From the IMG/VR virus record IMGVR_UViG_3300036766_000670, positions 14,591 through 78,590 of that record: 64,000 nucleotides of DNA; one strand, written 5' to 3'. The first letter of the stretch is position 1. Every line of letters starts with the position of its first letter. The DNA is from a virus. Shown here one piece after another: positions 39,637-62,591 of this stretch. A program made the position numbers and the translations under genes. Under the pieces are notes generated by a model. It ran no database searches. It saw only the letters and a list, made by a program, of their open reading frames with translations, and was not told the origin of the DNA.

Positions 39637-40929
39637 TTATAAATATATCAACTCTACACTATCAAGAGAAGGATTTTTGACTGCTACATTTTCCTGTATT
39701 CGGTTCGGTATTGGAAAAGTATTTATTGTGAGATAGCCCTTTCCCCATTGGTATGTTCCAGGACCATCTTGATTACTTTGTTGGTGTAAAATATCGTTAA
39801 GATTGAGAAGTACATTATCTGAGAACACATTCATACTTTGATAGTCTATATCCATGATAACATCTTCGGTTTCCAAGGGCTTATTTACAAAAATATCTTT
39901 TCCTTCCCATGTTCGATAGTACTTTTTGTATATCTCCCATAATGGTGGTGTAATGTCAAGAAGATTATTGGCAGGAATATGCAATTTGTCATATTCTTTA
40001 ATTAAGTTGTTTCTCACCACTTCATTGTCAATGTATATCTTGTCAAATCTATAATAGTTTTGGAATATGACAACTCCATCAAGAGGAGTAACATTCTTGA
40101 AATTGATACTAGCGTGATATTTGTATTCTTTTAGAGGATCAAAAGTCGTTGTATGCTTAAATGTTGGCCATTTGCGAAGAAATCTTTGCATTTCAATTAT
40201 ATCGGCTATAGATTGGAGCCGGGTTCTTGCTTGGAATTTTTCAGTCCACCATTCAATTCCTCGGGACGAAATGCAGGTGAAATGATATACTAAAGCATTC
40301 CAAATTTGCTTAATTTTCAATCCTTTCATCGAAAAACGATATAATAAGTCAGAATCTTCCCGAGAACGACGAAAAAGGGTATCATGTCCTCCAATTTCAA
40401 CCCAATTTTTCTTATAAAGAGTGAAGGGAGCGAACCAGAAGTCGGTCTGATGAAGGCTTTTATTTGCCTCGGCAAATGTTGTGAAATCATCCAGGATAAA
40501 TGTTTTGGGGTCTAACCCAAAGTCATAGGTAATTTTTTCCGGAGATGGTGGGTGAAGTGGTGGCTCGATTCTGGTAGCTGATATGATAGTATCGGGAGTT
40601 AGATATTTCAATATTTCATCATCATAATCTTTACAGATGATCATATCGCTCTGTAAGTAACTTACAACATCAGTTTGAGCCATTTCAAACATTAAGTTTA
40701 TATTTCTAGAATATCCCAAAGGTATTGGTAATGGATTTTTTATAATTCTGAGATTGGGGAAGTGTTGTTTTTGAGTTACGAGGAAGCTCGTGGTGTCCTG
40801 ATTATCATTTTCCACATAAACGAGAATGTCGTGGTCTTTGCGGGAAAGATTTTTGGCAAGAGAACGGAAAAGTAACTCAAGATGCTGTCGCTCGTTTTTA
40901 GCAGTATTGATGCAGAAAGTTATTTTCAT
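39637..40929 (-). CDS. glycosyltransferase, GT2-like
   Basis: ITFCINT...YLQSDM...GGHDTLF...EDSDLLYR...VYHF. Confidence 0.8.
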   Translation of the reverse strand: MKITFCINTAKNERQHLELLFRSLAKNLSRKDHDILVYVENDNQDTTSFLVTQKQHFPNLRIIKNPLPIPLGYSRNINLMFEMAQTDVVSYLQSDMIICKDYDDEILKYLTPDTIISATRIEPPLHPPSPEKITYDFGLDPKTFILDDFTTFAEANKSLHQTDFWFAPFTLYKKNWVEIGGHDTLFRRSREDSDLLYRFSMKGLKIKQIWNALVYHFTCISSRGIEWWTEKFQARTRLQSIADIIEMQRFLRKWPTFKHTTTFDPLKEYKYHASINFKNVTPLDGVVIFQNYYRFDKIYIDNEVVRNNLIKEYDKLHIPANNLLDITPPLWEIYKKYYRTWEGKDIFVNKPLETEDVIMDIDYQSMNVFSDNVLLNLNDILHQQSNQDGPGTYQWGKGYLTINTFPIPNRIQENVAVKNPSLDSVELIYL

Positions 40930-41780
40930 AGAACTTTTTCTATAGTACGACACAATCCTTCATCAAATCCAATCAATTTATCGACTATAGGCAATTCATA
41001 AAGATTTTTATAATCACCTGTATAACTTCCATACCCAAATGGTTCTATTTCTTTGATTGCAGGTCCATGTATTTTGGTATGTTTATGTATAAGATTTGCT
41101 ATTTTCAACAAATCCATTTTTTTGTCATAAACTAGGTTGAGATTTCGTTGCCAAGTTGGATTATGGAAAATATAATCCATCACTATGAAAATGTCATCCA
41201 TGTAAAAAAAATCCATCTCCATATTCCGATGGATTTCTATTGGCAATCCTTTTTTAAGATTGAGAATAGAACGTTTTATAAAGCGGGTATCCTCTTCATT
41301 ATAATTGAAACATCCAAAAATGCGAAGCACCCACATATTCTCGAAATCCGAAAGTGCTCTTCGTGCAATAATATTTTTTGATAAGCCATAAGGATCGGTG
41401 GGCCACCTGGAGAAAAGGTACTCTTCACGACATAATTGTATTGGATATCTTCTATCAAACTCTGCTCCCGAACCTATAAGAATTGTTGGAGGAAAATCAT
41501 GATAGTTTTGAAGTATAGCACGATATAGATTTTCAAACATTCTGATATTTGGAATATATACTTCATCAAATGTATCCTTTTTGGTGCGTTTCCCTCCCTT
41601 TGTAGCAGCATGGATAATAGCATCTGGATGATTTTGTTTTAGATATTCAACCAAAGATTCAAAATTGAAAAGATCCAGTTCTGTTCGTGAAGGAGCAAGA
41701 ACATCATACCCCGCCCGTTCAAATAGAGGTTTGAGATTTCTTGCTATATAGCCGCTTCCACCTGTGATTAGGAGTTTCAT
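40926..41780 (-). CDS. NAD-dependent epimerase/reductase (SDR)
   Basis: ITGGSGYIA, GSGAE, YGLSK. Confidence 0.88.
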   Translation of the reverse strand: MKLLITGGSGYIARNLKPLFERAGYDVLAPSRTELDLFNFESLVEYLKQNHPDAIIHAATKGGKRTKKDTFDEVYIPNIRMFENLYRAILQNYHDFPPTILIGSGAEFDRRYPIQLCREEYLFSRWPTDPYGLSKNIIARRALSDFENMWVLRIFGCFNYNEEDTRFIKRSILNLKKGLPIEIHRNMEMDFFYMDDIFIVMDYIFHNPTWQRNLNLVYDKKMDLLKIANLIHKHTKIHGPAIKEIEPFGYGSYTGDYKNLYELPIVDKLIGFDEGLCRTIEKVL

Positions 41781-42265
41781 TTAATTAGATTTATGTAATG
41801 AGGTTTTTCATCATGTAAAAAAAGTAGAAATTCGTTTGTTAGATCTAATACCGTTGGCGGTTTTGATGAAATGATGCTTTTGAATTGTTTCATAATTGCC
41901 ATATCTTCTTCGGCCCAGTGCGTAAAACCTAAATATCCATAATCTTTATCTCTTCCTCCACCAACCAGTTTTATAGGAAGTTTTTCATATTCCATAAAAT
42001 TTCTTATGAACTCGAATGGACGATAAAGCAGAAAAGATGTAATGGAATAGCAGATAGGGGTCTTTCCTTCCATTGCTAAACCAGCGGCAACTCCAATCAT
42101 AAATTGTTCAGCCGAACCCACATTGAAAAATCTATCAAAAAATTCTTTACGAATATCGTCCCATAGACCATATCCCATATCAGCGGTTATAAGGATGATG
42201 TTTTTTCCACGATCCTTACGCATTTCTGTTAAAAGCATTTTGGCAAAATCTCGTCTCATTTGCAT
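41777..42265 (-). CDS. transketolase-like, pyrimidine-binding subunit
   Basis: TADMGY, NVGSAEQFMIGVAAGLA, GFTH. Confidence 0.85.
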   Translation of the reverse strand: MQMRRDFAKMLLTEMRKDRGKNIILITADMGYGLWDDIRKEFFDRFFNVGSAEQFMIGVAAGLAMEGKTPICYSITSFLLYRPFEFIRNFMEYEKLPIKLVGGGRDKDYGYLGFTHWAEEDMAIMKQFKSIISSKPPTVLDLTNEFLLFLHDEKPHYINLIK

Positions 42266-42891
42266 ATCTCCATTGCTATATCATAATCTTCTTTGGACAT
42301 TATTTTATAATGGGCGTTCAAATCATGAAGGAAGGGGAAGTGTTCGGAAGTGCAGTTTATAATTGAAACTTGAGCTTTTTGAGTAAATCCCGATATTTGA
42401 CGATATAATTTATATGGTGGAATTGGATCATAAGCACCATAGCCATTAGACATAATATACACTTGAATGTTGGGAACATCATTCATGTCTAAAAATCGTA
42501 ATGCTTCCCAAAATACACCCTCGGCTGTTTCTCCATCACTAACCATTACGTGAATTCGACGATTTTTATTAGTCAATGCTCGGCCAACGGCGGCAGCTAT
42601 TCCCATTCCTAAACTGCCAGTAGAGCAGTAAATGTGATTTTCCTCGTCTAAGTGAGGATGTCCACCATGCTTTTTGAAAAGTTCCTCGGCATCATGACCA
42701 TAGTATTTTTCAAGTACAACATATAAAGCGAGGGCAGCATGTCCATTAGAAAGAATGAAAATGTCATCGAGTTTCTTTTTCTTAAAAATCCAATCAATCG
42801 TATCTACACATGAAAAATAGCTTCCCAGATGAGCAAGTTTATGTTTATAAGCAATCTCAATTATTCGTTTCTTCAAGTCTTTATTTACCAT
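42256..42891 (-). CDS. transketolase-like, TPP-binding N-terminal subunit
   Basis: HLGS, LSNGHA, GHP, STGSLGMG, SDGETAEG. Confidence 0.88.
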   Translation of the reverse strand: MVNKDLKKRIIEIAYKHKLAHLGSYFSCVDTIDWIFKKKKLDDIFILSNGHAALALYVVLEKYYGHDAEELFKKHGGHPHLDEENHIYCSTGSLGMGIAAAVGRALTNKNRRIHVMVSDGETAEGVFWEALRFLDMNDVPNIQVYIMSNGYGAYDPIPPYKLYRQISGFTQKAQVSIINCTSEHFPFLHDLNAHYKIMSKEDYDIAMEICK

Positions 42892-43856
42892 ATAAAATTG
42901 TCCTGGTAATATTTTACCACAGTCGGCAATTCTTTGTCAAATTCACAGAGATTTTTCCACCCGAGTTTTCGTAATTTACTATCATCAAGACTATAGCGTA
43001 AATCTTGACCATCACGAGAATATGAAAAATCACAATAATCTTTTGCTTTTCCAGTTAAATTCACATCTGAACTCATAATAAGTTTAGTTATTTTTTTGAC
43101 TACCTCTATATTAGAAAGTTCACAATCTCCCGAGATGTTATATATCTCATTGAGTGGCGCTCCTTCATCATTGGCATAGATTATAGTTACAACGGCATAT
43201 GCTGTGTCTTTAGCATGTAACCATACTCGTTTTGGAAGCCCAAAATTATGAAGAGGAATTTTTTTCCCGAGTTGAATAAATTTGCATGTCTTGGGAATGA
43301 GTTTTTCTACGTACTGTCCAATCCCATAGTTATTCGTAGGTCTAACAATAATGTATGGAACCTTGAACGTTCTTCCCCAAGCTGTGATAAGCATATCTGC
43401 CGCTGCTTTAGTTGCTGAATATGGATTGCTTGGTTTGAGTAAATCTTTTTCCGTATATGAACCTTCTTTGATGTTTCCATATACTTCGTCGGTGCTAAAA
43501 TGTAAAAATATTGGCATCTTGTACCTATCCTTTTGACGAATGAGTTCCAATAGATGTTTTACTCCTTTGATATTAGAATGAATGAACTCATCACTATTTA
43601 CGATAGAATTGTCCACATGTGTTTCAGCAGCAATATTGATTACATAATCGCAATCGTATAATGAAGTCAGATCATTTATATCGGCGTGGATAAACTTGAA
43701 TTCTTTCCATTGAAGAAACTCTTTCAATGCCTCTGGTTGAGCGGCATAGGTCATTTTATCTACTCCGATGACATACCATCCTTCATCTAAACATTCTCTG
43801 GTAACATATGCTCCAATAAATCCAAGGCAACCTGTAATATATACTATTTTTTTCAT
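42885..43856 (-). CDS. rmlB: dTDP-glucose 4,6-dehydratase
   Basis: TGCLGFIG, DKMTYA, AAETHVDNS, STDEVYG, PYSATKA, NNYG..Q..EKLIP. Confidence 0.9.
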   Translation of the reverse strand: MKKIVYITGCLGFIGAYVTRECLDEGWYVIGVDKMTYAAQPEALKEFLQWKEFKFIHADINDLTSLYDCDYVINIAAETHVDNSIVNSDEFIHSNIKGVKHLLELIRQKDRYKMPIFLHFSTDEVYGNIKEGSYTEKDLLKPSNPYSATKAAADMLITAWGRTFKVPYIIVRPTNNYGIGQYVEKLIPKTCKFIQLGKKIPLHNFGLPKRVWLHAKDTAYAVVTIIYANDEGAPLNEIYNISGDCELSNIEVVKKITKLIMSSDVNLTGKAKDYCDFSYSRDGQDLRYSLDDSKLRKLGWKNLCEFDKELPTVVKYYQDNFIW

Positions 43857-44551
43857 AACATTTTCTTGAATTGAAAGTAAAAATTCCAACTCTGTATTAG
43901 TTCATCCGGCATTGTTTCCTCACTATTCAGTTTTGGGTAATGCGGAGTTTGTAGCGGTGACGGATAGACCGCAACAGACTCAAGTTTATGTATGTACATA
44001 AAATACAAAAAATTGTCGTAATCCCATAATCCTCTATATAAAAACTGGTGGGCCATTCTCCAATTTGGAATGCTTATCATTAAAATAGAGTTCTTGTGCA
44101 TCAAACTGTATATTTTTTTCATTACATTTGACGGAGCTATCAAGTGTTCGAGGGTATCATTACAAATAATAAGATCATAGACAGGAAAAAGTCCACTTAC
44201 ATCCATATCCATAGAAATATCTTTCACAAAAAAGGTTCCTTTGAACTTTTTATTATCAAAATATTTTTTGGCAAATGGTTTATCTACTAAATGATAATTC
44301 ACTGGATACGAAAGTTTGGTTTGTATTTTTTGACTTAGAATACCCGGGCCAGACCCAACTTCCAGTATGGTCTTGACCTGAATTGAAGAGACAATTTCAA
44401 CAGTAAGAGATGCTTCGTATTCATATCGGTTATCCCACCCGTTTTCGTCTAATCGTCCGACAGTATCCCATTCATTTGGATCGAGAGTATCTACTTTGTT
44501 GGCAGTAAAACTTCGTTCAAAATCGTTATGTGTAACTCGGAACATTGCCAT
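43853..44551 (-). CDS. SAM-dependent methyltransferase
   Basis: ILEVGSGPG, YDLIICNDTLEH, SIPN. Confidence 0.85.
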   Translation of the reverse strand: MAMFRVTHNDFERSFTANKVDTLDPNEWDTVGRLDENGWDNRYEYEASLTVEIVSSIQVKTILEVGSGPGILSQKIQTKLSYPVNYHLVDKPFAKKYFDNKKFKGTFFVKDISMDMDVSGLFPVYDLIICNDTLEHLIAPSNVMKKIYSLMHKNSILMISIPNWRMAHQFLYRGLWDYDNFLYFMYIHKLESVAVYPSPLQTPHYPKLNSEETMPDELIQSWNFYFQFKKML

Positions 44552-44552
44552 A

Positions 44553-45215
44553 TTAGGTAATTTGTTTCATTTGAAGATTGGTCAGGTCATATTTATATTT
44601 TATGGACGATTTTTTCAAAAATACTTGCCAGGCGTGGTCAAGCATTTGAAAATTTCCCTGATAAGCATTTAAAAAGGCATCAATTCCTAGTTTTGGTTTT
44701 TGTTTTTCGTCAGTGGTATGAATACCCCATCCATAATTGTTGAAAATAAGAATTCCTCCATCTTTGAGGAGATTCCATGACAGAACAGCATCACTTAATA
44801 CATCAATTGCCAAATTAGAACCATCAACATAAACATAATCCACAGTTTCAGATATGAATACACTTGGATCACGAAGTATGTCATACGATTTTCCTTTCAT
44901 AAACCGAATGTTTTTGTAAGGAACAATGTTATTTGTGAGATATTCAGTCTCGGTGATGTCAATAGTGTAATGGAGACTATTTTCTCCATTTGTAATTCTA
45001 TCGGCGCAGAACACAGCGCAATCTCCATTATACGCTCCTATTTCTATCCCAAGTACATTTGGTTTATTTGAAAAATGCCCTAAATAAGTTTGCCATTTTG
45101 GAATCCACTTCTCAAAAAAATTTGATCCCATAAATCCTTCGGGTCTTTTCATGTGAAATGGATAAGTGTAGGTTGTAATATCTTTTGTTAATGTATATTC
45201 CGCTTTATCACTCAT
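44553..45215 (-). CDS. class I SAM methyltransferase (possibly degenerate)
   Basis: IEIGAYNG, DYVYVDGSN, LKDGGILIFNNY. Confidence 0.75.
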   Translation of the reverse strand: MSDKAEYTLTKDITTYTYPFHMKRPEGFMGSNFFEKWIPKWQTYLGHFSNKPNVLGIEIGAYNGDCAVFCADRITNGENSLHYTIDITETEYLTNNIVPYKNIRFMKGKSYDILRDPSVFISETVDYVYVDGSNLAIDVLSDAVLSWNLLKDGGILIFNNYGWGIHTTDEKQKPKLGIDAFLNAYQGNFQMLDHAWQVFLKKSSIKYKYDLTNLQMKQIT

Positions 45216-46570
45216 ATGTTTTTAAAAAATTCCTTTACTATTTGTTCTACATAATCCAGTTGTGGTGATGTAATTACTGGACTGGTTCCTAAAAAGAAAG
45301 TGTTGGTTGTTACTAAAGTTGCCACCGGAAAAAGTTTTCTCGCCCACTCAGCGTTCATTCCTATTGCTTGTCGTAATATTCCATAATCATTATGCCACCA
45401 CCCTATGTCTGCATATGCAGGTTGAAGAAGAAGATTGCCGCCGAAATAATTTCGGGTTTGAATCTTGTATTCTTCCAAATAACTTGTAAGTTTAGATCGT
45501 GTAAATGGGCCACATTGTTTTACTGTAAGAGGAAATGCAAACCAAGAAGGATCTGAATTCGGCGTAGCTTCATGAATATATAGAAATTCTTCATAGGGTT
45601 TGAATATATCATATAACCGCTTATAGTTTGCCTTCCGTATTTCGTGGATTTTTGGTAATTTTTTCATCTGAGCAAGTCCAATAGAACATTGAAGTTCTAT
45701 GGGTTTCAGATTATACCCGATATTATCATATACATATTTGTGATCAAATATTTCTTCTGGAAGCGAAGGCAACCAGTTTTTGAATCGGCATCCACAGGTG
45801 CCCTTGGGTGAAAGATTTGCCTTCTTTCCAACACAATAGCATCCACGTCCCCACTCTCTAAAGCTACGGGCGATTTTCTTTTGTTCTTCATTTTCACAAG
45901 CAAGAAATCCACCTTCGCCCATTGTCATATGATGAGCGGGGTAAAATGAGCATGTAGATAATTTTCCATAACTTCCCAGAGGCTTGTTTCTGTAAGTTGA
46001 GCCGAGGGCATCACAACAATCTTCCAAAAATATCATGCCATATCTATCCATAATGTCGATCAATTCATCCATATTGGGAGGATTGCCTAACACATGAGCA
46101 AATATAATAACTGCGGCACCATTTTTGGCAGCTATTTTTACTTGATACAAATCCGGACCAAGATTCCACGGATCAATATCAATAAATACAGGTTCAAATC
46201 CGGCTTGAATGATTGGATTGACTGTCGTTGGAAATCCTGCTACAGGAACAATGACCTTGGTTCTGTTTTTGAGTTTGAAGTACTTCTTGGCAGTGACCAT
46301 CATTAAAAGATTGGCACTGGAACCACTATTGGTGATTATGCCATAGTATTTTCCAAGCAGGGATGGAAACGTCTTTTCAAATTCCACCGCATCTTGTCCA
46401 AGAATAAGCCATTCATCGAGCAATGTGTTTATCGCTTTGGAATACTCCTCACCATCAAAGTAAGGACCAGAATATTGAACCCAATCTTTACCTGGAGTCC
46501 ATATTTTGGCCGCTTGTTTTTCGGCCATATATTCTTCGATGAGGTTTAATATTTCTTGTTTTGTAACCAT
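45212..46570 (-). CDS. rfbH: NDP-4-keto-6-deoxyglucose 3-dehydratase (RfbH/DdhC, E1)
   Basis: NSGSSANL, EDCCDALG, SFYPAHHMTMGEGG (His in place of the PLP Lys), WGRGCYC...TCGCRF Cys cluster, DHKY...GYNLK. Confidence 0.9.
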   Translation of the reverse strand: MVTKQEILNLIEEYMAEKQAAKIWTPGKDWVQYSGPYFDGEEYSKAINTLLDEWLILGQDAVEFEKTFPSLLGKYYGIITNSGSSANLLMMVTAKKYFKLKNRTKVIVPVAGFPTTVNPIIQAGFEPVFIDIDPWNLGPDLYQVKIAAKNGAAVIIFAHVLGNPPNMDELIDIMDRYGMIFLEDCCDALGSTYRNKPLGSYGKLSTCSFYPAHHMTMGEGGFLACENEEQKKIARSFREWGRGCYCVGKKANLSPKGTCGCRFKNWLPSLPEEIFDHKYVYDNIGYNLKPIELQCSIGLAQMKKLPKIHEIRKANYKRLYDIFKPYEEFLYIHEATPNSDPSWFAFPLTVKQCGPFTRSKLTSYLEEYKIQTRNYFGGNLLLQPAYADIGWWHNDYGILRQAIGMNAEWARKLFPVATLVTTNTFFLGTSPVITSPQLDYVEQIVKEFFKNI

Positions 46571-46578
46571 ATTTTTGT

Positions 46579-46607
46579 AGTATATCACCTTTGTTACTAC
46601 CTGGCAA
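46579..46607 (-). promoter_or_regulatory. sigma70-like promoter inside the glycan island
   Basis: TTGCCA-17-TATACT, 8 nt before ATG 46570. Confidence 0.6.
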
Positions 46608-48357: not shown

Positions 48358-48358
48358 C

Positions 48359-48529
48359 TTATTTCCACTTGTTTAAATAATCTACCGCTTTTAGAATTGT
48401 AGAAATATTTTCTCCAAATAAACCAATCGCTTGATTACATTTTTGGCATAATAACTGTTTTACTTTTCTTGTCGTATGGTTGTGATCATCCATATATCTT
48501 TTTTGTTGTTCTTTATCTTTGTATGCCAT
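48359..48529 (-). pseudogene. internally deleted endonuclease VII-type HNH remnant
   Basis: 56 aa MAYKDKEQQKRYMDDHNHTTRKVKQLLCQKCNQAIGLFGEN...AVDYLNKWK; resembles the C-terminus of 2859..3311 but lacks the first CxxC. Confidence 0.75.
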
Positions 48530-48535
48530 ATTATT

Positions 48536-52617: not shown

Positions 52618-52619
52618 AT

Positions 52620-54696: not shown

Positions 54697-54707
54697 AAAT
54701 TTTCCGT

Positions 54708-55541: not shown

Positions 55542-55543
55542 AT

Positions 55544-56332: not shown

Positions 56333-57021
56333 ACATTTTGTTTGTATCCTCCATACCCCCTATTTTCATCTTCGGTAAACTCTTTGTTATACCACAGATT
56401 TGTCTGGAGTTGGGTTTCTATAGTCTTATCGTGATACAATGAAAAATCAACTTCGGCAGGCAGAGCGGAATATTTGGTATATCCTTCGATCTTTTCATGC
56501 AGACGGCGATCCCATCTTATTCTTGCAGAGACATTCTTGTAAACTCTACCCTGATAATCGGGCCAGTTGATTATTGGTCGACCTCCATATTCTTTACATG
56601 GAGTTAGTCTCCATCCCCATTGATTTGCATGCTCTTGTTTAACTCCTTTGAAGTCATTGACTCGGGGGAGAAGAAAAAGTTCGATATCAGGATTTGCTCC
56701 TATGATGTTTTTGATGTTCATTAGTAAAACTTCCGAAGGAAGTTCATCCGCATCTATTTGAAATATCCAATCTCCTTTACACAGTTCATTTCCATAGTTT
56801 TTGTGTGCTCCATAATTGCGATCTAGAGCATGTTGATATACTCTTACATTGTCTTTATAGGAATATTCCAAGAGAATTTTCTGACATTTGGGGTTATCAG
56901 AAAAGTCATCGAGGATTACAATCTCATCGTCCAGATCGCAAAATCTGGATACTCTTTGAAGTAGATTTTTGAGAGTACAATCTTCATTGTGGCAAGTGAT
57001 TAAGTATGAAATTTTCAGCAT
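56329..57021 (-). CDS. GT2 glycosyltransferase
   Basis: ITCHNE, LDDFSD, WIFQIDADE, LHE. Confidence 0.85.
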   Translation of the reverse strand: MLKISYLITCHNEDCTLKNLLQRVSRFCDLDDEIVILDDFSDNPKCQKILLEYSYKDNVRVYQHALDRNYGAHKNYGNELCKGDWIFQIDADELPSEVLLMNIKNIIGANPDIELFLLPRVNDFKGVKQEHANQWGWRLTPCKEYGGRPIINWPDYQGRVYKNVSARIRWDRRLHEKIEGYTKYSALPAEVDFSLYHDKTIETQLQTNLWYNKEFTEDENRGYGGYKQNV

Positions 57022-57031: not shown

Positions 57032-58459
57032 TTATTTTACTGGTATTAGGGTTGTTGATGAAGTTGTTTTTCCTTCGCCAGGAATAGATGGAGAACATCC
57101 TCCAGCGGGCATTGTCACACTTGCTGTGATCGCTGTTATTGGCGGTAATCCTTTGTTAGAGAAACTCAATTTCTTTAACTTTGGAAGTATTATTGGTTCT
57201 TCTATAGCAAACTTCGGAACATATTTGTCTAATATTGCATGAAACACCTTATCCATAGTTTCAATCGAAAACTTTTCAGCATTTTCAACCCGAAGAGCTT
57301 CGGCGTTCTTTAGAATGTCATCGCTATAATTTCTGAAATATTGACGCATCTTCTGTCCAGCAGCCACATAGTCTACCTCAAACCATCGTGCATCTTTGAT
57401 AAACCATTCATTTAAAGCTTCGTCGGGAATAGGCACGAGATTCCCTTCAAAGAATTTGCAAAGTTTTGGATTCAAGAAATCCAAGTGACCGCTCCAATGT
57501 GGGGTCAGGAGAGGCTTGCCACTTAAAGTAGCAATTAAGAGAGGATGCCCGAATCCTTCACCGTGGGTAAAACTGACATGTACTTTTACCTTTTCATGAT
57601 TGTAAAGTGCATTCATTTCTTTATCTTCCAGTTCTCCATGAAGAAGATAAATGTTTGGAAGTTTGATATTGGGCGGTAATCCCTGTTTTACCATATTGGT
57701 AACTTCACGGATTTTATTGATGCATTCATATTTATCCATGATACAAATTTGCGCTCCGCTCGTTTTTAGAATAAGAGCGGGAGGATTTTCCACACCGGCA
57801 AATGTCTCAAGAAAAGTTTTGATTAGAAATCCAATTGCTTTGCGATCTGCTCGCATATTCCCCGCCGTCCACTGACCAACAAATAGAAAACAGAATGATT
57901 CGGGAAGTTCTTTCAAACTTTCTTCAAGTGAAGCAATTTTTTCATCAGTCTTGTGATACACTTTTGTATCTGCTCCCCAAAATAATATTTCCATTGGAGT
58001 TTTGACTTTCAACTCTTCCGAGGTTCCATTAGGAAGTTTCTTGTTATAATTGGCACAAACAAACACATCACGAGCATGAACAGAAGTAACGATGTTCAAG
58101 TTCATGCGATTCAGACCTTCAAGCCATTCGGGTTTTGGAACTGTTGTTTCGATTCCTGCCGTCATACCGATATTGTACTTGGCCGGAGTAGCAAACTCAT
58201 TAGGAATGGTCATTTGAATGAATAACTCTGGTTGTCTTGTAAGAGGAGATTTTATAACACGATTGAAAAGTTCCTTTCCTTCTGGGTCGTTGATTTCTGA
58301 ATCCAAGTTTTTTTTCGAACATGCTCCCCAGATTGTCGGCGCTGTTATAAGTTCGAACTTATTATATCTCAATAAACTTTTTCCAATTGCCACTCCCCAA
58401 TCTCCGTATCCACTTCTTGTAAACAATGGAGCCTGAAAAATACAAACGGGTTTACTCAT
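57032..58459 (-). CDS. GT4-like (GT-B) glycosyltransferase
   Basis: SGYG, FLFVGQW, RK.IG.LI..F, THGEGFGHPLL, WSGHLDF. Confidence 0.8.
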   Translation of the reverse strand: MSKPVCIFQAPLFTRSGYGDWGVAIGKSLLRYNKFELITAPTIWGACSKKNLDSEINDPEGKELFNRVIKSPLTRQPELFIQMTIPNEFATPAKYNIGMTAGIETTVPKPEWLEGLNRMNLNIVTSVHARDVFVCANYNKKLPNGTSEELKVKTPMEILFWGADTKVYHKTDEKIASLEESLKELPESFCFLFVGQWTAGNMRADRKAIGFLIKTFLETFAGVENPPALILKTSGAQICIMDKYECINKIREVTNMVKQGLPPNIKLPNIYLLHGELEDKEMNALYNHEKVKVHVSFTHGEGFGHPLLIATLSGKPLLTPHWSGHLDFLNPKLCKFFEGNLVPIPDEALNEWFIKDARWFEVDYVAAGQKMRQYFRNYSDDILKNAEALRVENAEKFSIETMDKVFHAILDKYVPKFAIEEPIILPKLKKLSFSNKGLPPITAITASVTMPAGGCSPSIPGEGKTTSSTTLIPVK

Positions 58460-59190
58460 ATTTTTATTCCTAACTCTTTTTCTGTTATTATTCTAAAACT
58501 ATAACCATTTTTCTTACAAAACTTTTTGGTATATTTTATTTTTTCTTTATTATTGAAACACACCGAGTTTATCAATACAGATGGTTTTACTTCTTCTATA
58601 ATACTATTATTCACTAAAAAATCGGGAATATATCTTTGCTTCTTGTTTCTATTCATATATGGTATTACTATTCCGTGTTTTTTAGTCCACCTTTCCCCAC
58701 TATTGTCTAACTGTTTCATTCTTATCAACTCATATGAACTTTGATAATATTCTCTTTTACTGGTCATAGTAGATATATAATATCCGTGTAAATGTTTAGT
58801 TTTTGTCGGAGAAATTCGTCCCTTCGCCGTTTCGTCTATAAACCAACTTCTAAAACATTCTTGATTACAAAATTTTCCCCATCCTATTCGTATTCTTGAA
58901 GCCATCGCATAAATAGGCTTTTTACAATATTTACATTTTCTATACGTTCCTTTTCTGATGAATATCTTTCCTTTATCGGCACATTTCCTACAACAGAACT
59001 TTCCTTTATCGTCATCTATTCTATTTTTAGGAGTATAAAATATTTTACCGCATATTTTACATTTACACCTTTTGGTTCCGCTAGTATGTTTTGTTAAATA
59101 ACATTTTCGTGAGCAATAATTTCTTCCACTCCAACTTGGATAAACATAAAATACTTTGAGACATGTTTTACATTTTCTTTCTGTTTTCAT
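58456..59190 (-). CDS. putative homing endonuclease: three Zn-finger repeats + TnsA-like PD-(D/E)XK domain
   Basis: 3x CxxC...[YF]C...C; YQSSYE...IPY...YIPDFLV...EEVKP. Confidence 0.75.
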   Translation of the reverse strand: MKTERKCKTCLKVFYVYPSWSGRNYCSRKCYLTKHTSGTKRCKCKICGKIFYTPKNRIDDDKGKFCCRKCADKGKIFIRKGTYRKCKYCKKPIYAMASRIRIGWGKFCNQECFRSWFIDETAKGRISPTKTKHLHGYYISTMTSKREYYQSSYELIRMKQLDNSGERWTKKHGIVIPYMNRNKKQRYIPDFLVNNSIIEEVKPSVLINSVCFNNKEKIKYTKKFCKKNGYSFRIITEKELGIKI

Positions 59191-59311: not shown

Positions 59312-59354
59312 ATCTAATAAGTATCAGTGTGAACACAAAAGAAAACAAAAATAT

Positions 59355-59594: not shown

Positions 59595-59595
59595 G

Positions 59596-59820
59596 TTACA
59601 TTTCTATAATATCTTTGGGTTCAATTTCAAATTTTTCTCGGAGAAGTTTATACATTTCTTCCAGGCATTCGTCACAAAGATGGATTTCGATTCCGGTCAT
59701 GTCAAATTTGCTTCCACACCAACTACAAGTTTTTAATTCTGAGAAACATTCACGATCTGGATGTTTATCACAAAAATACTGCGCTTCCTCAAGAACACCT
59801 TGGGTAGTAATCTTTTTCAT
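59596..59820 (-). CDS. small Cys-rich protein
   Basis: FCDKH...CSWC...HLCDEC. Confidence 0.55.
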   Translation of the reverse strand: MKKITTQGVLEEAQYFCDKHPDRECFSELKTCSWCGSKFDMTGIEIHLCDECLEEMYKLLREKFEIEPKDIIEM

Positions 59821-60656
59821 TGCTTATTTTTCTCCTTCATTTCATCGCCATACTTTTTTCTCACAGGTACACCGCCCGCCTGTTGATACTTCTCAACAAT
59901 TGACAATCCTCCAGCATCAGGTGTTGTTTCTGTTATTTTTATGTTAGAAGGAGGGCTTTCTGCTTTTTTCATTTCCCGTTCAATAATATGATGTACTTGT
60001 GGATAATTCATTTCCCTACCAGATGGAGATTTTTTGAATGGAATTATATTATCTGAACTTCCGAATCCGCCTTCTCCACGAATAGTTTTGTCTAACTCAC
60101 TGACTAATATGAAGTTGGCTGGAACAGTTTCTTCTACTACAAGTTGTGCAATCGCATCACCCCTTTTGTAGATTTTGTCATAGTTAATTTTGCAAAGAAA
60201 GTGACCGTTTGGTTCCCACGTATAATTAGTTCCACCATCACTGGTCGGCACTTCAACCGTTTCCATCATAAGATCGTTTGGTTGCCATACATACCTAAAA
60301 CAAACAATGATTTCACCACGATAATCATTATCAATCAATCCAATGCTATTCGCAAGCACAAGATTATATTTTCGGATCGAAGAACGGGGATGAATAAGAG
60401 TATGATAGTTTGTATCAATCGGGTTTCCTGGAATAAAGTGTACTGGTTGGGGAGCAATATAAAGTCCTGTGTGATATTCGAGATAATCAATGCTGCGGTA
60501 GAATATTACCGATTTCCCACCGACTTCTTCGGCACTGCCGATTTCTCCAACAATTTTGGGATCGTCAATCGCAATGAGATCATAACCTGCCGATTGAGTG
60601 GTTGCTGGAACTGGAAGGGTAATACCTTCTATATTTTTGACTTGAATTGTAATCAT
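59817..60656 (-). CDS. dut: dUTPase (trimeric type, with insertions)
   Basis: SAGYDL, PRSS, GLIDNDYRGEI, IAQLV, RGEGGFGSS. Confidence 0.92.
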   Translation of the reverse strand: MITIQVKNIEGITLPVPATTQSAGYDLIAIDDPKIVGEIGSAEEVGGKSVIFYRSIDYLEYHTGLYIAPQPVHFIPGNPIDTNYHTLIHPRSSIRKYNLVLANSIGLIDNDYRGEIIVCFRYVWQPNDLMMETVEVPTSDGGTNYTWEPNGHFLCKINYDKIYKRGDAIAQLVVEETVPANFILVSELDKTIRGEGGFGSSDNIIPFKKSPSGREMNYPQVHHIIEREMKKAESPPSNIKITETTPDAGGLSIVEKYQQAGGVPVRKKYGDEMKEKNKQ

Positions 60657-60844: not shown

Positions 60845-60873
60845 AACTTTTCCTTAGAATTGTAACACATTAT

Positions 60874-61107
60874 CTACTTTTTGGCAACTTTTTTTACTTC
60901 TTTTTTAGGTCTTTTTATTAGAGTAAAATCCCATTCGTACCCGTCTCGGACTGGGAAGAATGCAACCCGCCCCCTTCCAAAAATGGAAGTGAGGTTTTTT
61001 ATCAATTTTTCACTGTATTTATCCACATCTCCGGGAGGCATATTGCCAATAGAATGATGGATCATTACCACATCATTCTCTCCGATTTCTACTACTTCTA
61101 TTTTCAT
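60874..61107 (-). CDS. hypothetical protein
   Basis: 77-aa ORF, ATGA-coupled. Confidence 0.5.
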   Translation of the reverse strand: MKIEVVEIGENDVVMIHHSIGNMPPGDVDKYSEKLIKNLTSIFGRGRVAFFPVRDGYEWDFTLIKRPKKEVKKVAKK

Positions 61108-62591
61108 ATTTTTATTCCTTCCAGTTTTTTCAACAGGGCTTCTTTATCAATTTTCGGGATTTCAAATCCCATGTGACCATCAGTCATGGTATTTCCAATA
61201 TAATTGTTGATTGTGTAAAGACCAAATCGTTTTGGCTTTGTCCAGTTGGCAAATACATACTCCATACCATCAATGAACTGTTGCCCCATATGTTTTGAAT
61301 TGATACCACCTTCCCCCAGTGCCCATTTTCGACCGATTTCTCCACACTTTTCACGTTTGTCGTTTTCTGCGAGATACCAGTACATAAATCCCTCAGCAAT
61401 ATCTTCCCACTTTGTCAAATCATCAAAAATATATGGTGTCGGAATACTGCCTTGAATAAGGCGAGTAACTGGCCATATAGGATATGCCCACGGCCCACAC
61501 TTTTTATACTTACCGACATTATTTGATCCAAAATCTGCATCAAATTCTATTGGTTTGCCATCATCATCTATTTGACCGATTTGATCTTGTAAACCGCCCG
61601 TAACAGCGACTACTACCGGCGTACCACTCATGATACTCTCGGCAATAGATAATCCAAATCCTTCACTAGATGATGCATTGACTGTTATATCGGCTGTATT
61701 GTACATCATATTCATGTCTTGTGGAGACAATTTCCCCGGCGAGAATACAATATTATGATTGGGGCAGATAGCTTCTTTAAGAGCAAGCAAATTTGTGCCT
61801 TCGTTTTGCATGAGTTCAGTATGCAATATCATCACACATTTTGCGGCTTCTTCTTTTGGAAGATTATCACAGAATATGCGATAAGCCATCATAATATTGC
61901 TGGTACGTTTACGCAGAATATTTCGGCTATTGTAAAGAATGACATATTTGTAATCAATCCCATGAAATACTTTCTTACGAAATTCCACTAATTTTGGATC
62001 GGATTTTGCAAGAGGGAAGAAAAATTCGGGATCTATACCATGAGGACAATATTGAAGCAAAGTTCTTCCGTTCATTGGACCGTCTCCGGTATAACAGCAA
62101 TTTTTAGGTTCAAGCACCCACTTATTGATATTCATGGTCTGCTTACTGATAGAAAACAGCGCATCACAACTTTCATAAAAACTGCGATTATATTGGGGAT
62201 AAGGTAAATTATCCCAAATGTTCAAATAAGTCAGCGGCATGACGGCACGAATTTGTTTTTCAAGAGCATATAACCATCCCCAAAACCGTGGATCAGTAAA
62301 ATGGAGTATGGCATGTGGATGTTCCATTGCAATAACCTGGAATAGAGTTTGTTCATTGCCATATCCATCAGTTGGATATACTTTTACGTAAGCATCTTTG
62401 ATTTTTTTCTGTTCGTTTATTGACTGTGATAAATCAGATATTTTTCCTTTTTCCGGATGAACAACTGCGCCCGCCAACTGTACCCAATCATACATATGAA
62501 CTGTTGATAATACTAATTCACGACTCATCGTCGCAATACCAGAGTTCATACGGAGATCATCTGACAACAGAAGGATTTTCTTTTTAGCCAT
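61104..62591 (-). CDS. GT4-like (GT-B) glycosyltransferase
   Basis: KILLLSDD...SG; PHGID; RN..RK; SEGFGLSIAESIMSGTPVV...GGL. Confidence 0.88.
   Translation of the reverse strand: MAKKKILLLSDDLRMNSGIATMSRELVLSTVHMYDWVQLAGAVVHPEKGKISDLSQSINEQKKIKDAYVKVYPTDGYGNEQTLFQVIAMEHPHAILHFTDPRFWGWLYALEKQIRAVMPLTYLNIWDNLPYPQYNRSFYESCDALFSISKQTMNINKWVLEPKNCCYTGDGPMNGRTLLQYCPHGIDPEFFFPLAKSDPKLVEFRKKVFHGIDYKYVILYNSRNILRKRTSNIMMAYRIFCDNLPKEEAAKCVMILHTELMQNEGTNLLALKEAICPNHNIVFSPGKLSPQDMNMMYNTADITVNASSSEGFGLSIAESIMSGTPVVVAVTGGLQDQIGQIDDDGKPIEFDADFGSNNVGKYKKCGPWAYPIWPVTRLIQGSIPTPYIFDDLTKWEDIAEGFMYWYLAENDKREKCGEIGRKWALGEGGINSKHMGQQFIDGMEYVFANWTKPKRFGLYTINNYIGNTMTDGHMGFEIPKIDKEALLKKLEGIKI

What the first reader, a model, noticed from the sequence alone, without database searches (positions are those of the whole stretch)
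39637..62591. ~23 kb phage-encoded glycan-building island
Seen: about 12 glycosyltransferase-like genes (GT2, GT2-GT10 fusion, two GT11, NodZ-like, GT32, GT47-like, two GT4, two unassigned) and 5 SAM methyltransferases, co-oriented and often ATGA-coupled. No flippase, Wzy polymerase or undecaprenyl priming transferase is recognisable. Inference: the phage builds its own complex O-methylated glycan on a cytoplasmic acceptor, most likely virion proteins and possibly DNA. This looks more like giant-virus glycosylation than like prophage O-antigen conversion. It is the best candidate here for an undescribed system.
Basis: partly seen in the sequence, partly recalled or inferred. Interest (0 to 1): 0.8.

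Follow-up and report, generated by a model that had tools for sequence, protein, structure and literature searches.

The report
Jumbo-phage hypervariable glycan-building island
An uncultured large phage from sediment carries a 23-kb block of soluble sugar-building enzymes, several of them most like the enzymes that algal giant viruses use to glycosylate their capsids; the same locus, with a fixed core and swappable cassettes, occurs in two cultured phages, so its unknown target can now be tested.

Summary
Window 38993-62645 (minus strand) holds 12 glycosyltransferase (GT) genes (13 domains), 5 SAM methyltransferases and a six-gene deoxysugar module. That module is a 4,6-dehydratase, an E1/RfbH-type 3-dehydrase, a split transketolase and a reductase. 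Eleven junctions are ATGA overlaps, and no enzyme has a transmembrane segment.

The island is the local version of a lineage-wide locus. A conserved core (two GT4s resembling chlorovirus B736L, a small GT2, a 332-aa GT-B-like protein, a long GT2) frames variable cassettes. This holds in 12 metagenomic relatives, in Flavobacterium phage Immutovirus and in Microcystis phage Mel-JY01.

No priming transferase, Wzx, Wzy or ABC exporter was found in the island, in the relatives' islands, or in three complete related genomes. One gene is a clear GT114 homologue of PBCV-1 A075L, with its catalytic residues kept.

- **DNA as acceptor:** unlikely. Immutovirus DNA carries no sugar, and two complete relatives have no ThyA homologue.
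- **Best reading (about 0.5):** cytoplasmic glycosylation of a phage-specified acceptor, probably virion protein.
- **Main rival:** host-envelope remodelling.

The locus is not undescribed. It is annotated in cultured phages, similar islands are reported in cyanophages, and this scan noted look-alikes in at least 15 other genomes. Its function is untested anywhere.

The parts
61104..62645 (-). Core GT4 (513 aa), first gene of the island
   Evidence: Pfam Glycos_transf_1 at 1.4e-12. The best PDB sequence hit is chlorovirus NY-2A B736L (3oy2, E 1.3e-11). Homologues are 76-79% identical in L003/L005, 44% in Immutovirus gp181 and 35% in Mel-JY01.
59817..60656 (-). dUTPase-like protein (279 aa) between the two core GT4 genes
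   Evidence: Pfam dUTPase at 1e-13; PHROG 135 at 3.6e-29. It holds the same position in L004, L005, L007 and L011.
58456..59190 (-). TnsA/endonuclease-I/HNH-like nuclease, a probable mobile insertion
   Evidence: Pfam Tn7_TnsA-like_N at 4.5e-11. It has no homologue in any related island. It joins the next gene by an ATGA overlap.
57032..58459 (-). Core GT4-like GT-B enzyme (475 aa)
   Evidence: AF2 model pLDDT 91. The best fold match is B736L (3oy2, E 1.6e-15). At least 7951 metagenomic homologues and 2555 clusters at 50% identity. It is 39% identical to Immutovirus gp180 and 37% to the Mel-JY01 homologue. It is present in all 5 distant relatives. It is nearly absent from 301 Bacteroidia-class genomes.
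56329..57021 (-). Core small GT2 (230 aa)
   Evidence: Pfam Glycos_transf_2 at 1.9e-15. Homologues occur in L003-L005, L007, L011, Immutovirus (38%) and Mel-JY01 (34%).
55544..56332 (-). GT32-type DXD glycosyltransferase (variable cassette A)
   Evidence: Pfam Gly_transf_sug at 1.3e-15 and Caps_synth at 7e-7. No homologue in related loci.
54708..55565 (-). GT114 (A075L-like) inverting GT-B enzyme; the likely start is the ATG at 55541
   Evidence: PDB 8avq/8q8i/8asa (A075L) at E 1.8e-43, residues 75-283 against 67-280. The equivalents of Asp73, Arg158 and Arg208 are conserved (read against PMC11571054).
53911..54744 (-). GT11-like (alpha-1,2-fucosyltransferase family), divergent
   Evidence: Pfam Glyco_transf_11 at 3.4e-6, 26.9 bits against a 23.9-bit cut-off.
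53246..53914 (-). Fifth methyltransferase, FkbM-like (222 aa)
   Evidence: BLASTP to FkbM1 at 6e-5, and a LEIGAGD SAM-binding motif. No Pfam hit.
52620..53234 (-). FkbM-family methyltransferase
   Evidence: Pfam Methyltransf_21 at 4.3e-20; TIGR01444 at 66 bits, above its cut-off.
51995..52582 (-). FkbM-family methyltransferase
   Evidence: Pfam Methyltransf_21 at 1e-14.
51000..51998 (-). Core 332-aa protein, probably a GT-B glycosyltransferase; it divides variable cassettes A and B
   Evidence: 40-72% identical homologues in all 12 IMG/VR loci. 25% identity to the Immutovirus 'mannosyltransferase' gp173. A profile search gives only a weak GT1 C-terminal match in the PDB (E 0.16).
50182..51003 (-). 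GT-A-fold protein (273 aa), ATGA-coupled to the GT2-GT10 gene
   Evidence: Atlas structure matches to GT2 and GT34-like clusters, with TM 0.75-0.83 normalised by query length. No Pfam, PHROG or PDB sequence hit.
48536..50185 (-). GT2-GT10 two-domain glycosyltransferase (549 aa)
   Evidence: Pfam GT2 at 1.2e-25 and GT10 at 7.7e-8. 816 homologues at E<=1e-10; the 120 best listed nearly all carry the same GT2+GT10 fusion. AF2 pLDDT 92. The best viral fold matches are giant-virus multidomain GTs.
48358..48535 (-). Intergenic gap holding a 56-codon endonuclease-VII-like remnant ORF
   Evidence: Read directly from the sequence; the assignment rests on motif resemblance only.
47548..48357 (-). GT11 (alpha-1,2-fucosyltransferase family)
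   Evidence: Pfam Glyco_transf_11 at 9.8e-31.
46622..47584 (-). NodZ/FUT8/O-FucT-like protein; the likely start is the ATG at 47551
   Evidence: Atlas feature scores 0.95-0.96 to clusters carrying NodZ/FUT8_N_cat/O-FucT, and structure TM 0.59-0.70 normalised by query length. No Pfam hit.
45212..46588 (-). E1/RfbH-type NDP-4-keto-6-deoxyhexose 3-dehydrase
   Evidence: NF011936 RfbH at 432.8 bits, above the 423-bit cut-off. SFYPAHH motif, with His-His where aminotransferases carry Lys. Cys192/250/252 spacing.
44553..45215 (-). Methyltransf_24 SAM methyltransferase
   Evidence: Pfam at 1e-10. 64-67% identical homologues in L005 and L007.
43853..44551 (-). Methyltransf_23 SAM methyltransferase
   Evidence: Pfam at 3e-12. 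62-66% identical homologues in L003 and L006.
42885..43889 (-). NDP-glucose 4,6-dehydratase (dTDP-glucose type)
   Evidence: TIGR01181 at 4.4e-87, 292 bits, below its equivalog cut-off of 365. Pfam GDP_Man_Dehyd at 6.7e-56.
41777..42891 (-). Split transketolase-like ThDP enzyme (N subunit 42256-42891; pyrimidine-binding subunit 41777-42265)
   Evidence: Pfam Transketolase_N at 7.7e-10 and Transket_pyr at 1e-13. The same RfbH + split-TK pairing occurs in bacterial loci L019 and L064 and in viral locus L004.
40926..41780 (-). SDR epimerase/reductase (RmlD-like N-terminus)
   Evidence: Pfam Epimerase at 1e-21 and RmlD_sub_bind at 1.1e-10.
39637..40953 (-). Core long GT2 (438 aa) with an uncharacterised C-terminal half of about 200 aa; last enzyme of the island
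   Evidence: Pfam GT2 at 8.7e-6. Homologues in 10 of the 14 related loci compared (9 of 12 IMG/VR loci plus Immutovirus gp169), 29-50% identical.
39293..39631 (-). Small 2-TM protein (DUF1360-like), preceded by TATTTATA
   Evidence: Two hydrophobic segments. 41-66% identical homologues directly after the last GT in L003, L005 and L011; a partial match also lies at the truncated end of L006. Motif at 39638-39645.
38993..39286 (-). 97-aa ORF conserved after the 2-TM gene
   Evidence: 48-51% identical homologues in L003 and L005. No family assignment.
62827..63324 (-). Tail-tube paralogue directly upstream of the island (context, not shown to belong)
   Evidence: 36% identity and E 1e-25 to the tail tube protein at 2163-2654. 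PHROG 4542 at 8.6e-8.

Best explanation
The island is this phage's version of a lineage-wide glycan assembly locus that works without a lipid carrier.

Shown: it encodes only soluble enzymes.

Inferred from family membership, steps 1-3:
1. A sub-operon converts a host NDP-glucose into an unusual sugar. The steps are 4,6-dehydration, E1-type C3 deoxygenation, ThDP-dependent two-carbon branching by the split transketolase, and SDR reduction. The product would be a yersiniose-like 3,6-dideoxy branched hexose.
2. Conserved core GTs lay down an inner glycan on a conserved acceptor. These are two B736L-like GT4s, a small GT2, the 332-aa GT-B-like protein and the long GT2.
3. Cassette GTs extend the glycan with fucose-type and xylose-type residues. 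These are two GT11s, GT10, a NodZ-like enzyme, GT114, GT32 and a GT-A protein. Five methyltransferases cap it with O-methyl groups.

Inferred from comparative evidence: the acceptor is specified by the phage, most probably one or more virion proteins modified in the cytoplasm before or during assembly. The variable cassettes would give related phages different surface glycotypes.
For: - All enzyme assignments.
- No TM segment in any enzyme here, and no polytopic membrane protein in 12 related islands.
- Bac_transf, Glycos_transf_4, Wzx, Wzy_C and ABC2_membrane gave 0 hits in this contig, in a 210-kb relative rated 100% complete, in Immutovirus and in Mel-JY01, with controls positive.
- The core genes keep the same order in 12 IMG/VR loci and in phages of Flavobacterium and Microcystis, two host phyla, while the cassettes differ.
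- The core GT4-like family is huge in metagenomes. Only 1 of 301 Bacteroidia-class genomes gave a full-length match, on a 3.5-kb contig.
- About 16 of its 46 invariant or near-invariant positions lie in the N-terminal half, which binds the acceptor in GT-B enzymes.
- The GT114 gene matches the capsid-glycan enzyme A075L at E 1.8e-43 with catalytic residues kept (PMC11571054).
- Both core GT4s hit chlorovirus B736L best.
- The best viral fold matches of the GT2-GT10 fusion are giant-virus GTs.
- Chlorovirus GTs are likewise soluble and cytoplasmic (PMC9614988).
- Immutovirus DNA contains canonical dA, dC and dT plus fdPreQ1, and no glyco-nucleoside (PMC10516641).
Against: - No glycan or acceptor has been measured in this lineage.
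- The island and its relatives lie among replication, nucleotide-metabolism and lysis genes (clamp loader, dNMP-kinase-like, dUTPase, PD-(D/E)XK nuclease), not in the head module.
- Most O-antigen GTs are also soluble peripheral proteins, so a lack of TM segments does not exclude action on host undecaprenyl-linked intermediates, with the host supplying initiation and export.
- The contig is only about 27% of the genome, so missing genes could lie elsewhere in this phage.
- No initiating protein-glycosyltransferase type was recognised.
- Ser/Thr-rich tracts in the structural proteins are weak.
Confidence: 0.5

Rival explanations
1. Host-envelope remodelling. The soluble phage GTs act at the inner membrane on host undecaprenyl-(pyro)phosphate-linked intermediates. 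Host initiating transferase, flippase or ABC transporter, and ligase then put a new or altered polysaccharide on the infected cell. This could block superinfection or stop progeny from adsorbing to debris.
For: - This is the usual published reading of such islands in cyanophages and pelagimyophages (PMC12801897, PMC7029224).
- The RfbH + split-transketolase pairing and many cassette families (NeuB, RmlC, FdtA, Polysacc_synt_2) are typical of O-antigen and capsule loci.
- A small 2-TM protein is coupled to the last GT in the closest relatives.
Against: - There is no priming, flipping, polymerising, ligating or exporting gene in any island or in three complete genomes.
- The core GTs are conserved across phages of different host phyla and are essentially absent from the cellular genomes sampled.
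- Cellular homologues are at most 43% identical, and no cellular locus shares more than 3 island genes.
- The phage shows no sign of temperate life in the 78 kb seen, which contain a T4-like replication module.
Confidence: 0.25
2. DNA hypermodification. Some or all of the GTs glycosylate a modified base in phage DNA, as in T4 or in the arabinosyl-5-hydroxycytosine phages, to escape restriction.
For: - The island is embedded in the replication and nucleotide-metabolism region.
- A dUTPase sits between the two core GT-B enzymes here and in four relatives. A PD-(D/E)XK nuclease precedes the core in Immutovirus and Mel-JY01.
- Multi-sugar DNA glycans are known in phages (PMC13326640; bioRxiv 10.1101/2023.12.21.572611).
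Against: - Immutovirus, which has the core GTs, has canonical dA, dC and dT, with only fdPreQ1 replacing dG (PMC10516641).
- No ThyA-family hydroxymethylase or hydroxylase occurs in this contig, in the complete 210-kb relative or in Mel-JY01.
- Twelve GTs, five methyltransferases and a branched dideoxysugar pathway go far beyond any known DNA glycan.
- The TET/JBP search was uninformative because its control was silent.
Confidence: 0.05
3. Another cytoplasmic product. The island could make a free or lipid-anchored oligosaccharide, a glycolipid, or a glycosylated non-structural phage or host protein. Such a product might serve as a decoy or a regulator, or protect an injected internal protein, rather than forming a virion coat.
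For: - The acceptor is unknown.
- B736L's own acceptor is unknown too, and may not be the capsid protein (PMC9614988).
- The island is not linked to head genes.
- First-stage notes propose capsid-cargo proteins in this phage (untested).
Against: - There is no precedent in phages.
- The pattern of a conserved core plus hypervariable periphery is what one expects of an exposed, selected surface structure.
Confidence: 0.15

Closest known systems
Chlorovirus (PBCV-1) virus-encoded capsid N-glycosylation: A075L (GT114), A111/114R, A064R, A061L, A546L/B736L
   Same: - The GTs are virus-encoded, soluble and cytoplasmic, and methyltransferases build a fucose/xylose/6-deoxyhexose-rich O-methylated glycan without the host's secretory or lipid-carrier route (PMC9614988).
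- There is a direct homologue of A075L with its catalytic residues.
- The core GT4s are most like B736L.
- The GT-A | GT2-GT10 gene pair has the same domain order as the three-domain A111/114R. This is an architectural parallel only.
- A conserved core with a variable periphery.
   Different: - This is a tailed phage of a bacterium, not a nucleocytoplasmic virus.
- The acceptor is unknown.
- The N-terminal, acceptor-binding 74 residues of the GT114 homologue do not align to A075L.
- The island adds a 3,6-dideoxy/branched-sugar module that is not known in chloroviruses.
[quoted passage not shown]
   Same: They have the same core genes in the same order (GT4, GT4-like, GT2 ... long GT2), at 29-44% identity, and the same kind of genomic neighbourhood.
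   Different: - Their islands are smaller: 10.8 kb and 6.2 kb against 23 kb.
- Their cassettes differ. Immutovirus carries aminotransferases and a PglB-like acetyltransferase.
- They have no embedded dUTPase and no 2-TM gene.
- They are annotated only as 'glycosyltransferase'. No study of them was found in the library.
Mycobacteriophage virion O-glycosylation (Che8, Corndog, Myrna; Freeman et al. 2023, known here through citing papers PMC12619734 and PMC12801897)
   Same: Phage-encoded GTs modify virion proteins (capsid and tail-tube C-termini) in the cytoplasm. This is the only experimentally shown protein glycosylation by tailed phages.
   Different: - Only a few GTs are involved.
- The hosts are Actinobacteria.
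- No homology was tested, because the paper is not held.
- Those phages have no nucleotide-sugar pathway or cassette architecture on this scale.
'LPS' / cell-wall-modification gene clusters of T4-like cyanophages (P-SSM2, S-SCSM1, S-SCSM2R) and the host recognition cluster of pelagimyophages
   Same: - They are large islands of GT2/GT10/GT11/GT4, epimerase and FkbM genes in aquatic myoviruses.
- The GT10 domain here matches S-SSM7, S-SRM01 and S-SCSM2R at 31-38% identity.
- Their function is equally untested.
   Different: - They belong to a different phage lineage (Kyanoviridae).
- They were not shown to share the core genes identified here.
- They are usually interpreted as host-surface modification, and in pelagimyophages they sit beside tail-fibre genes.
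Bacterial Wzx/Wzy- or ABC-dependent O-antigen and capsule loci, and Gtr-type serotype conversion by temperate phages
   Same: They use the same enzyme families for sugar activation and transfer. The RfbH + split-transketolase pair is found in bacterial loci.
   Different: - There is no initiating transferase, flippase, polymerase, ligase, exporter or GtrA/B/C-type membrane protein.
- Identity to cellular homologues is at most 43%, and there is no shared synteny beyond 3 genes.

Membership tests
CAZy GT114 (founder PBCV-1 A075L), for gene 54708-55565 | Significant full-domain sequence similarity to A075L | tested here: met
   E 1.8e-43, 152 bits, query 75-283 against chain 67-280 of 282.
CAZy GT114 (founder PBCV-1 A075L), for gene 54708-55565 | Catalytic base Asp73 and phosphate-stabilising Arg158 and Arg208 (PMC11571054) | tested here: met
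   The alignment pairs HSD with CSD (Asp conserved), EERQR with KERET (Arg158 equivalent conserved) and THR with CHR (Arg208 equivalent conserved). Asn202 is Ser here.
CAZy GT114 (founder PBCV-1 A075L), for gene 54708-55565 | UDP-xylose donor and Fuc-O4 acceptor specificity | not testable with these tools
   The N-terminal 74 residues (acceptor domain) do not align, so specificity may differ.
Giant-virus-type autonomous virion glycosylation | Virus-encoded soluble GTs and methyltransferases, with no dependence on a membrane-carrier pathway encoded by the virus | tested here: met
Giant-virus-type autonomous virion glycosylation | The glycan is attached to a capsid or fibril protein | not testable with these tools
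   This needs glycoproteomics. No capsid gene was identified on the 78.6-kb contig.
Wzx/Wzy- or ABC-dependent polysaccharide locus | Initiating phosphoglycosyl or GlcNAc-1-P transferase (Bac_transf / Glycos_transf_4) | tested here: not met
   0 hits in the contig and in 4 related genomes, 3 of them complete; controls rang in 9 and 12 of 14 genomes.
Wzx/Wzy- or ABC-dependent polysaccharide locus | Flippase, polymerase/ligase or ABC-2 exporter | tested here: not met
   Polysacc_synt, Wzy_C and ABC2_membrane gave 0 hits. No polytopic membrane ORF occurs in any island.
Gtr-type phage serotype conversion | GtrA flippase, membrane-anchored GtrB and polytopic GtrC | tested here: not met
   The GT2 proteins lack TM segments, and no polytopic protein is present. 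GtrA Pfam itself was not searched.
Phage DNA glycosylation (T4 type, 5hmC/5hoC-arabinosyl type, TET-GT type) | An enzyme that makes the hydroxylated base (ThyA homologue or TET/JBP dioxygenase) | tested here: inconclusive
   The ThyA family is absent from the contig (27% complete), from the complete relative G001 and from Mel-JY01; it is present in Immutovirus. The Tet_JBP search had no ringing control.
Phage DNA glycosylation (T4 type, 5hmC/5hoC-arabinosyl type, TET-GT type) | Glycosylated nucleosides in virion DNA | tested here: not met
   Tested for a relative only. Published LC-MS of Immutovirus DNA shows dA, dC, dT and fdPreQ1 (PMC10516641). This phage itself was not testable.
E1/RfbH-type 3-dehydrase, for gene 45212-46588 | Scores above the curated equivalog cut-off, and has His in place of the PLP lysine | tested here: met
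   NF011936 at 432.8 bits against 423. The SFYPAHH motif is shared by the four close (61-69% identical) phage homologues; the two distant ones keep only the His-His pair (SFYYAHH, STYFGHH).
E1/RfbH-type 3-dehydrase, for gene 45212-46588 | [2Fe-2S] motif C-X57-C-X1-C-X7-C (recalled from the literature on Yersinia E1) and a partner E3 reductase | tested here: inconclusive
   Cys192-X57-Cys250-X1-Cys252 fits, but the fourth Cys is at 265/267, not X7. No E3-like reductase gene was seen in the island.
'Moraphage' jumbo-phage lineage (PMC12619734) | Four core GT orthogroups, a 200-307 kb genome, and heat-shock chaperone genes in all members | tested here: inconclusive
   Core GTs and the estimated size fit. 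However, no HSP70 occurs in this contig or in the complete relative G001.

The most novel reading that the evidence does not exclude
A widespread lineage of large aquatic and sediment phages, including the cultivable Immutovirus and Mel-JY01, runs an autonomous, giant-virus-style protein glycosylation system. A conserved set of phage-specific GTs primes a virion protein in the cytoplasm. Exchangeable 10-20 kb cassettes then give each phage its own methylated, deoxysugar-rich 'serotype'. That would be the phage counterpart of O-antigen diversity, and an evolutionary link to chlorovirus capsid glycosylation through GT114 and B736L-type enzymes.
Probability: 0.4. Interest if true: 0.8.

Novelty: new variant of a known kind. 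Interest (0 to 1): 0.6.

Why it matters
Large 'LPS-like' gene islands have been seen in aquatic phage genomes for many years, and nobody knows what they glycosylate. The analysis here gives three things:

1. A lineage-wide conserved core framing hypervariable cassettes.
2. A specific molecular link to the only well-studied virus-encoded capsid glycosylation machinery, that of chloroviruses.
3. Two cultured phages that carry the same core. For one of them, published mass spectrometry already argues against DNA as the target.

The open question therefore becomes directly testable with existing strains.

If virions are the target, phage particles would carry strain-specific glycan coats. That would bear on host recognition, on shielding from defence and grazing, on particle stability and on the antigenicity of phages. 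It would also make the cassettes a source of enzymes for rare methylated and branched sugars.

Tried and rejected
- Megablast of the island and of the left 25 kb against 50,697 phage records found no match.
- The search for related loci with the GT2-GT10 protein alone found nothing in the viral contigs. The single RfbH protein found nothing in the genome contigs. An alignment query then worked.
The 147-kb contig that carries the identical GT4-like protein could therefore not be read, and the sequence beyond the window's right end stays unknown.
- **Is 50182-51003 the detached first domain of a three-domain A111/114R-like protein?** BLASTP to the N-termini of the 771-782-aa GT2-GT10 relatives found nothing. 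Only fold-level GT-A similarity remains.
- **Timing of expression.** The TATTTATA candidate late-promoter motif is mildly enriched in the window (18 against 8.3 expected). On the island's strand it occurs only before the 2-TM gene and inside the GT32 gene. Sigma-70-like sites are not enriched (85 against 83.7). No timing can be inferred.
- **Ser/Thr-rich acceptor tracts.** Only weak tracts (50-60% S/T over 20 aa) occur, in four structural proteins at the contig's left end.
- **Moraphage membership:** not supported by the HSP70 test.
- The Tet_JBP search was uninformative because its control was silent.
- The look-up of sequencing runs listed no RNA holder. The DNA is held by two sediment-metagenome runs that may be its source.
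- Mel-JY01 is not mentioned in the paper library. The Freeman et al. 2023 paper is not held.
- PDB sequence searches of 46622-47584, 50182-51003 and 53246-53914 gave only chance-level hits.

Full report
**Context**

The window is bases 14591-78590 of a 78,590-bp IMG/VR viral contig that CheckV rates about 27% complete, which implies a genome near 290 kb.
- The contig carries tail assembly, sheath, tube and baseplate-hub genes.
- It also carries a T4-like replication set: UvsX/RecA, DnaB-type helicase, ribonucleotide reductase and clamp loader.
- It has no nucleotide-level match among 50,697 phage records.
- Its recombinase is closest to Microcystis phage Mel-JY01 (44%) and to an uncultured 484-kb phage record (38%).
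- The DNA occurs in two sediment metagenome runs.

**Observation**

From 62645 down to 38993, every gene of 80 codons or more is on the minus strand.

Family searches, PDB sequence searches, Atlas look-ups and internal BLAST give 12 GT genes with 13 GT domains:
- GT2 (39637-40953 and 56329-57021)
- GT2-GT10 fusion (48536-50185)
- GT11 (47548-48357 and 53911-54744)
- NodZ/FUT8-like (46622-47584)
- GT32 (55544-56332)
- GT114 (54708-55565)
- GT4 (61104-62645 and 57032-58459)
- A GT-A-fold protein (50182-51003)
- A 332-aa GT-B-like protein (51000-51998)

There are five SAM methyltransferases: 43853-44551, 44553-45215, 51995-52582, 52620-53234, and the FkbM-like 53246-53914.

A six-gene nucleotide-sugar module is also present:
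- A dTDP-glucose-type 4,6-dehydratase (42885-43889).
- An RfbH/E1-type 3-dehydrase (45212-46588). It scores above the curated cut-off. It has His-His where aminotransferases have the PLP lysine.
- A split transketolase (41777-42891).
- An SDR reductase (40926-41780).

Two interlopers sit in the island. One is a dUTPase (59817-60656). The other is a TnsA/HNH-like endonuclease (58456-59190) that no relative has.

Eleven of 26 junctions are ATGA overlaps. A Kyte-Doolittle scan finds no TM segment in any enzyme. Only the 112-aa protein after the last GT has two.

**The island is a lineage-wide locus with a fixed core and variable cassettes**

A scan of viral contigs with the 332-aa protein returned 12 loci. 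BLAST mapping and a whole-record search show the same frame everywhere:

GT4(513) - [dUTPase] - GT4-like(475) - GT2(230) - cassette A - 332-aa protein - cassette B - GT2(438) - [2-TM protein - 97-aa ORF]

The islands span about 17-25 kb. Core proteins are 40-79% identical. Most cassette genes of this window have no counterpart elsewhere: GT32, GT114, both FkbM genes, the GT-A protein and the NodZ-like protein have none, and GT11a and GT11b give only weak (24-31%) matches inside a two-domain protein.

Conversely, 126 cassette ORFs of the relatives carry families absent here:
- NeuB, CMP-sugar synthetase and GT29
- FdtA and RmlC
- YerE-like ThDP enzymes
- Radical SAM enzymes
- PseB-like dehydratases
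- Nucleotidyltransferases
- A rhamnosyl O-methyltransferase

Two cultured phages have the same core in the same order:
- Flavobacterium phage vB_FspM_immuto: gp181-gp169, 10.8 kb, 29-44% identity.
- Microcystis phage Mel-JY01: 6.2 kb, 34-37% identity.

The core GT4-like protein has at least 7,951 homologues at 90% clustering, on contigs up to 364 kb. It has 2,555 clusters at 50% identity. In 301 sampled genomes of the class of a Flavobacterium MAG, only one short contig had a full-length match. This is a phage gene family, not a borrowed host gene.

**No lipid-carrier machinery**

Bac_transf, Glycos_transf_4, Polysacc_synt (Wzx), Wzy_C and ABC2_membrane gave no hit in any of the following, while the control genomes rang:
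- This contig
- A 210-kb relative rated 100% complete
- A 130-kb relative
- Immutovirus
- Mel-JY01

No polytopic membrane ORF lies in any of the 12 related islands.

Among 185,579 species genomes, the best RfbH homologues are at most 43% identical and scattered over many phyla. No locus shares more than three island genes. All ORFs here are intact. The RfbH + split-transketolase pairing does exist in bacteria (L019, L064), so that sub-module is an old, shared design.

**Link to giant viruses**

- Gene 54708-55565 matches the crystal-structure sequences of PBCV-1 A075L at E 1.8e-43 over almost the whole chain. A075L is the beta-xylosyltransferase that xylosylates fucose in the capsid N-glycan core, and it founded family GT114 (PMC11571054).
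- In the printed alignment, the catalytic base Asp73 and the phosphate-binding Arg158 and Arg208 are conserved. The N-terminal acceptor region does not align.
- For the first core GT4, the best solved relative by sequence is chlorovirus NY-2A B736L.
- For the second core GT4, B736L is also the best match, this time by predicted fold (pLDDT 91). B736L's own acceptor is unknown (PMC9614988).
- The GT2-GT10 model (pLDDT 92) is closest to multidomain GTs of Terrestrivirus, Yasminevirus, Marseillevirus and others, at domain level only (TM about 0.4).
- The pair GT-A(273) | GT2-GT10(549) has the same domain order and sizes as the three-domain A111/114R (PMC9614988). No sequence homology could be shown.

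**Mechanism proposed**

Shown:
- The enzyme families
- Solubility
- Gene coupling
- The core-and-cassette pattern
- The absence of export genes

Inferred from the families:
1. Host NDP-glucose is dehydrated at C4/C6.
2. It is deoxygenated at C3.
3. The split transketolase gives it a two-carbon branch.
4. It is reduced, yielding a yersiniose-like sugar. No nucleotidyltransferase or E3 reductase is encoded here, so the host must supply them.
5. GDP-fucose-type and UDP-xylose-type donors are used by the GT10, GT11, NodZ-like and GT114 enzymes.
6. The five methyltransferases cap hydroxyl groups.

Inferred from comparison: the core GTs start the chain on an acceptor common to phages of Bacteroidota and Cyanobacteria, hence probably phage-encoded. 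The many invariant residues in the N-terminal half of the GT4-like family fit a conserved acceptor.

**Which acceptor?**

*DNA is unlikely.*
- Published LC-MS of Immutovirus DNA shows canonical dA, dC and dT, with fdPreQ1 replacing dG.
- ThyA-type base hydroxylases are absent from this contig, from the complete relative and from Mel-JY01.

*Virion protein is the best guess (about 0.5).* It rests on exclusion and analogy.

*Against the virion reading:*
- The island lies among replication, nucleotide and lysis genes in all genomes seen.
- O-antigen GTs are also soluble.
- The published view of comparable cyanophage and pelagimyophage islands is host-surface modification.

A tail-tube paralogue directly upstream and weak Ser/Thr-rich tracts in structural proteins are noted but prove nothing.

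**Novelty**

Phage GT islands are known.
- S-SCSM2R, with 13 GTs, was called possibly the highest number in a marine phage. This island has 12 genes and 13 domains.
- 'Moraphages' have four core GT orthogroups, though membership here is not supported.
- This scan has noted look-alike islands in at least 15 other genomes, and hundreds of phage GT islands overall.

New in this analysis:
- The defined core-and-cassette architecture
- The GT114 and B736L links
- The exclusion evidence
- The identification of two cultured phages in which the function can be tested

I rate it a new variant of a known kind, with interest 0.6.

Noticed in passing
window 62827-63324 (-): A second tail-tube-like gene (165 aa) lies about 60 kb from the structural module, directly upstream of the glycan island and co-oriented with it. 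It is 36% identical (E 1e-25) to the tube protein at 2163-2654. It is not at this position in L003 or L005.
   Followed up: partly
window 58456-59190 (-), with the gaps 59191-59816 and 60657-61103: A TnsA/endonuclease-I/HNH-like nuclease is inserted between the dUTPase and the core GT4-like gene. It is absent from every related island, so it is probably a homing-type mobile element. The flanking gaps hold several short CxxC-containing ORFs.
   Followed up: partly
window 59817-60656 (-); also L004:688-1320, L005:2458-3165, L007:6412-7107, L011:300-989: A dUTPase with an extended length (279 aa, domain matched in 2-3 stretches) is conserved between the two core GT4 genes in this subgroup. It is absent from Immutovirus and Mel-JY01. 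Why a nucleotide-metabolism gene is fixed inside a glycan operon is unexplained.
   Followed up: partly
window 48358-48535 (-): The only sizeable gap inside the coupled GT run holds a 56-codon ORF. Its ...HNHTTRKV..LLCQKCNQAIG... motif looks like a truncated endonuclease-VII/HNH domain.
   Followed up: no
window 39638-39645 (-): The TATTTATA motif (18 copies in the window against 8.3 expected) sits 6 nt before the 2-TM gene that follows the last GT. It is not found ahead of the island itself.
   Followed up: partly
window 38993-62645, start-codon contexts: Upstream regions of nearly all island genes are A/T-rich with no Shine-Dalgarno-like purine run. This fits a host that makes little use of SD, such as Bacteroidota or Cyanobacteria. 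It is a lead on the host only.
   Followed up: no
P0114 (644 aa); P0242, P0244, P0251, P0276 (709-900 aa): Some metagenomic homologues of the core GT4-like protein are fused to an FkbM methyltransferase domain. Others are about twice as long, with two matched stretches, which suggests fusions or duplications of the core enzyme.
   Followed up: no
L003-L014 cassettes (e.g. L007:10993-13362, L011:4938-6743): Related islands carry nonulosonic-acid genes (NeuB, CMP-sugar synthetase, GT29 sialyltransferase-like), radical SAM enzymes, DUF2334 and YerE-like ThDP enzymes. Each phage appears to make a chemically different glycan.
   Followed up: partly
L015 (Immutovirus NC_055915) 26905-28149 of the record: Immutovirus has a 423-aa ThyA-family ORF although its dC and dT are reported canonical. 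Its DNA has dG fully replaced by fdPreQ1 (PMC10516641).
   Followed up: no
P0121 (389 aa): The protein collection holds a 389-aa form identical to the C-terminal 71% of the GT2-GT10 protein, on a 76-kb contig. This could be a different gene call or a truncated variant of the fusion in a near-identical phage.
   Followed up: no
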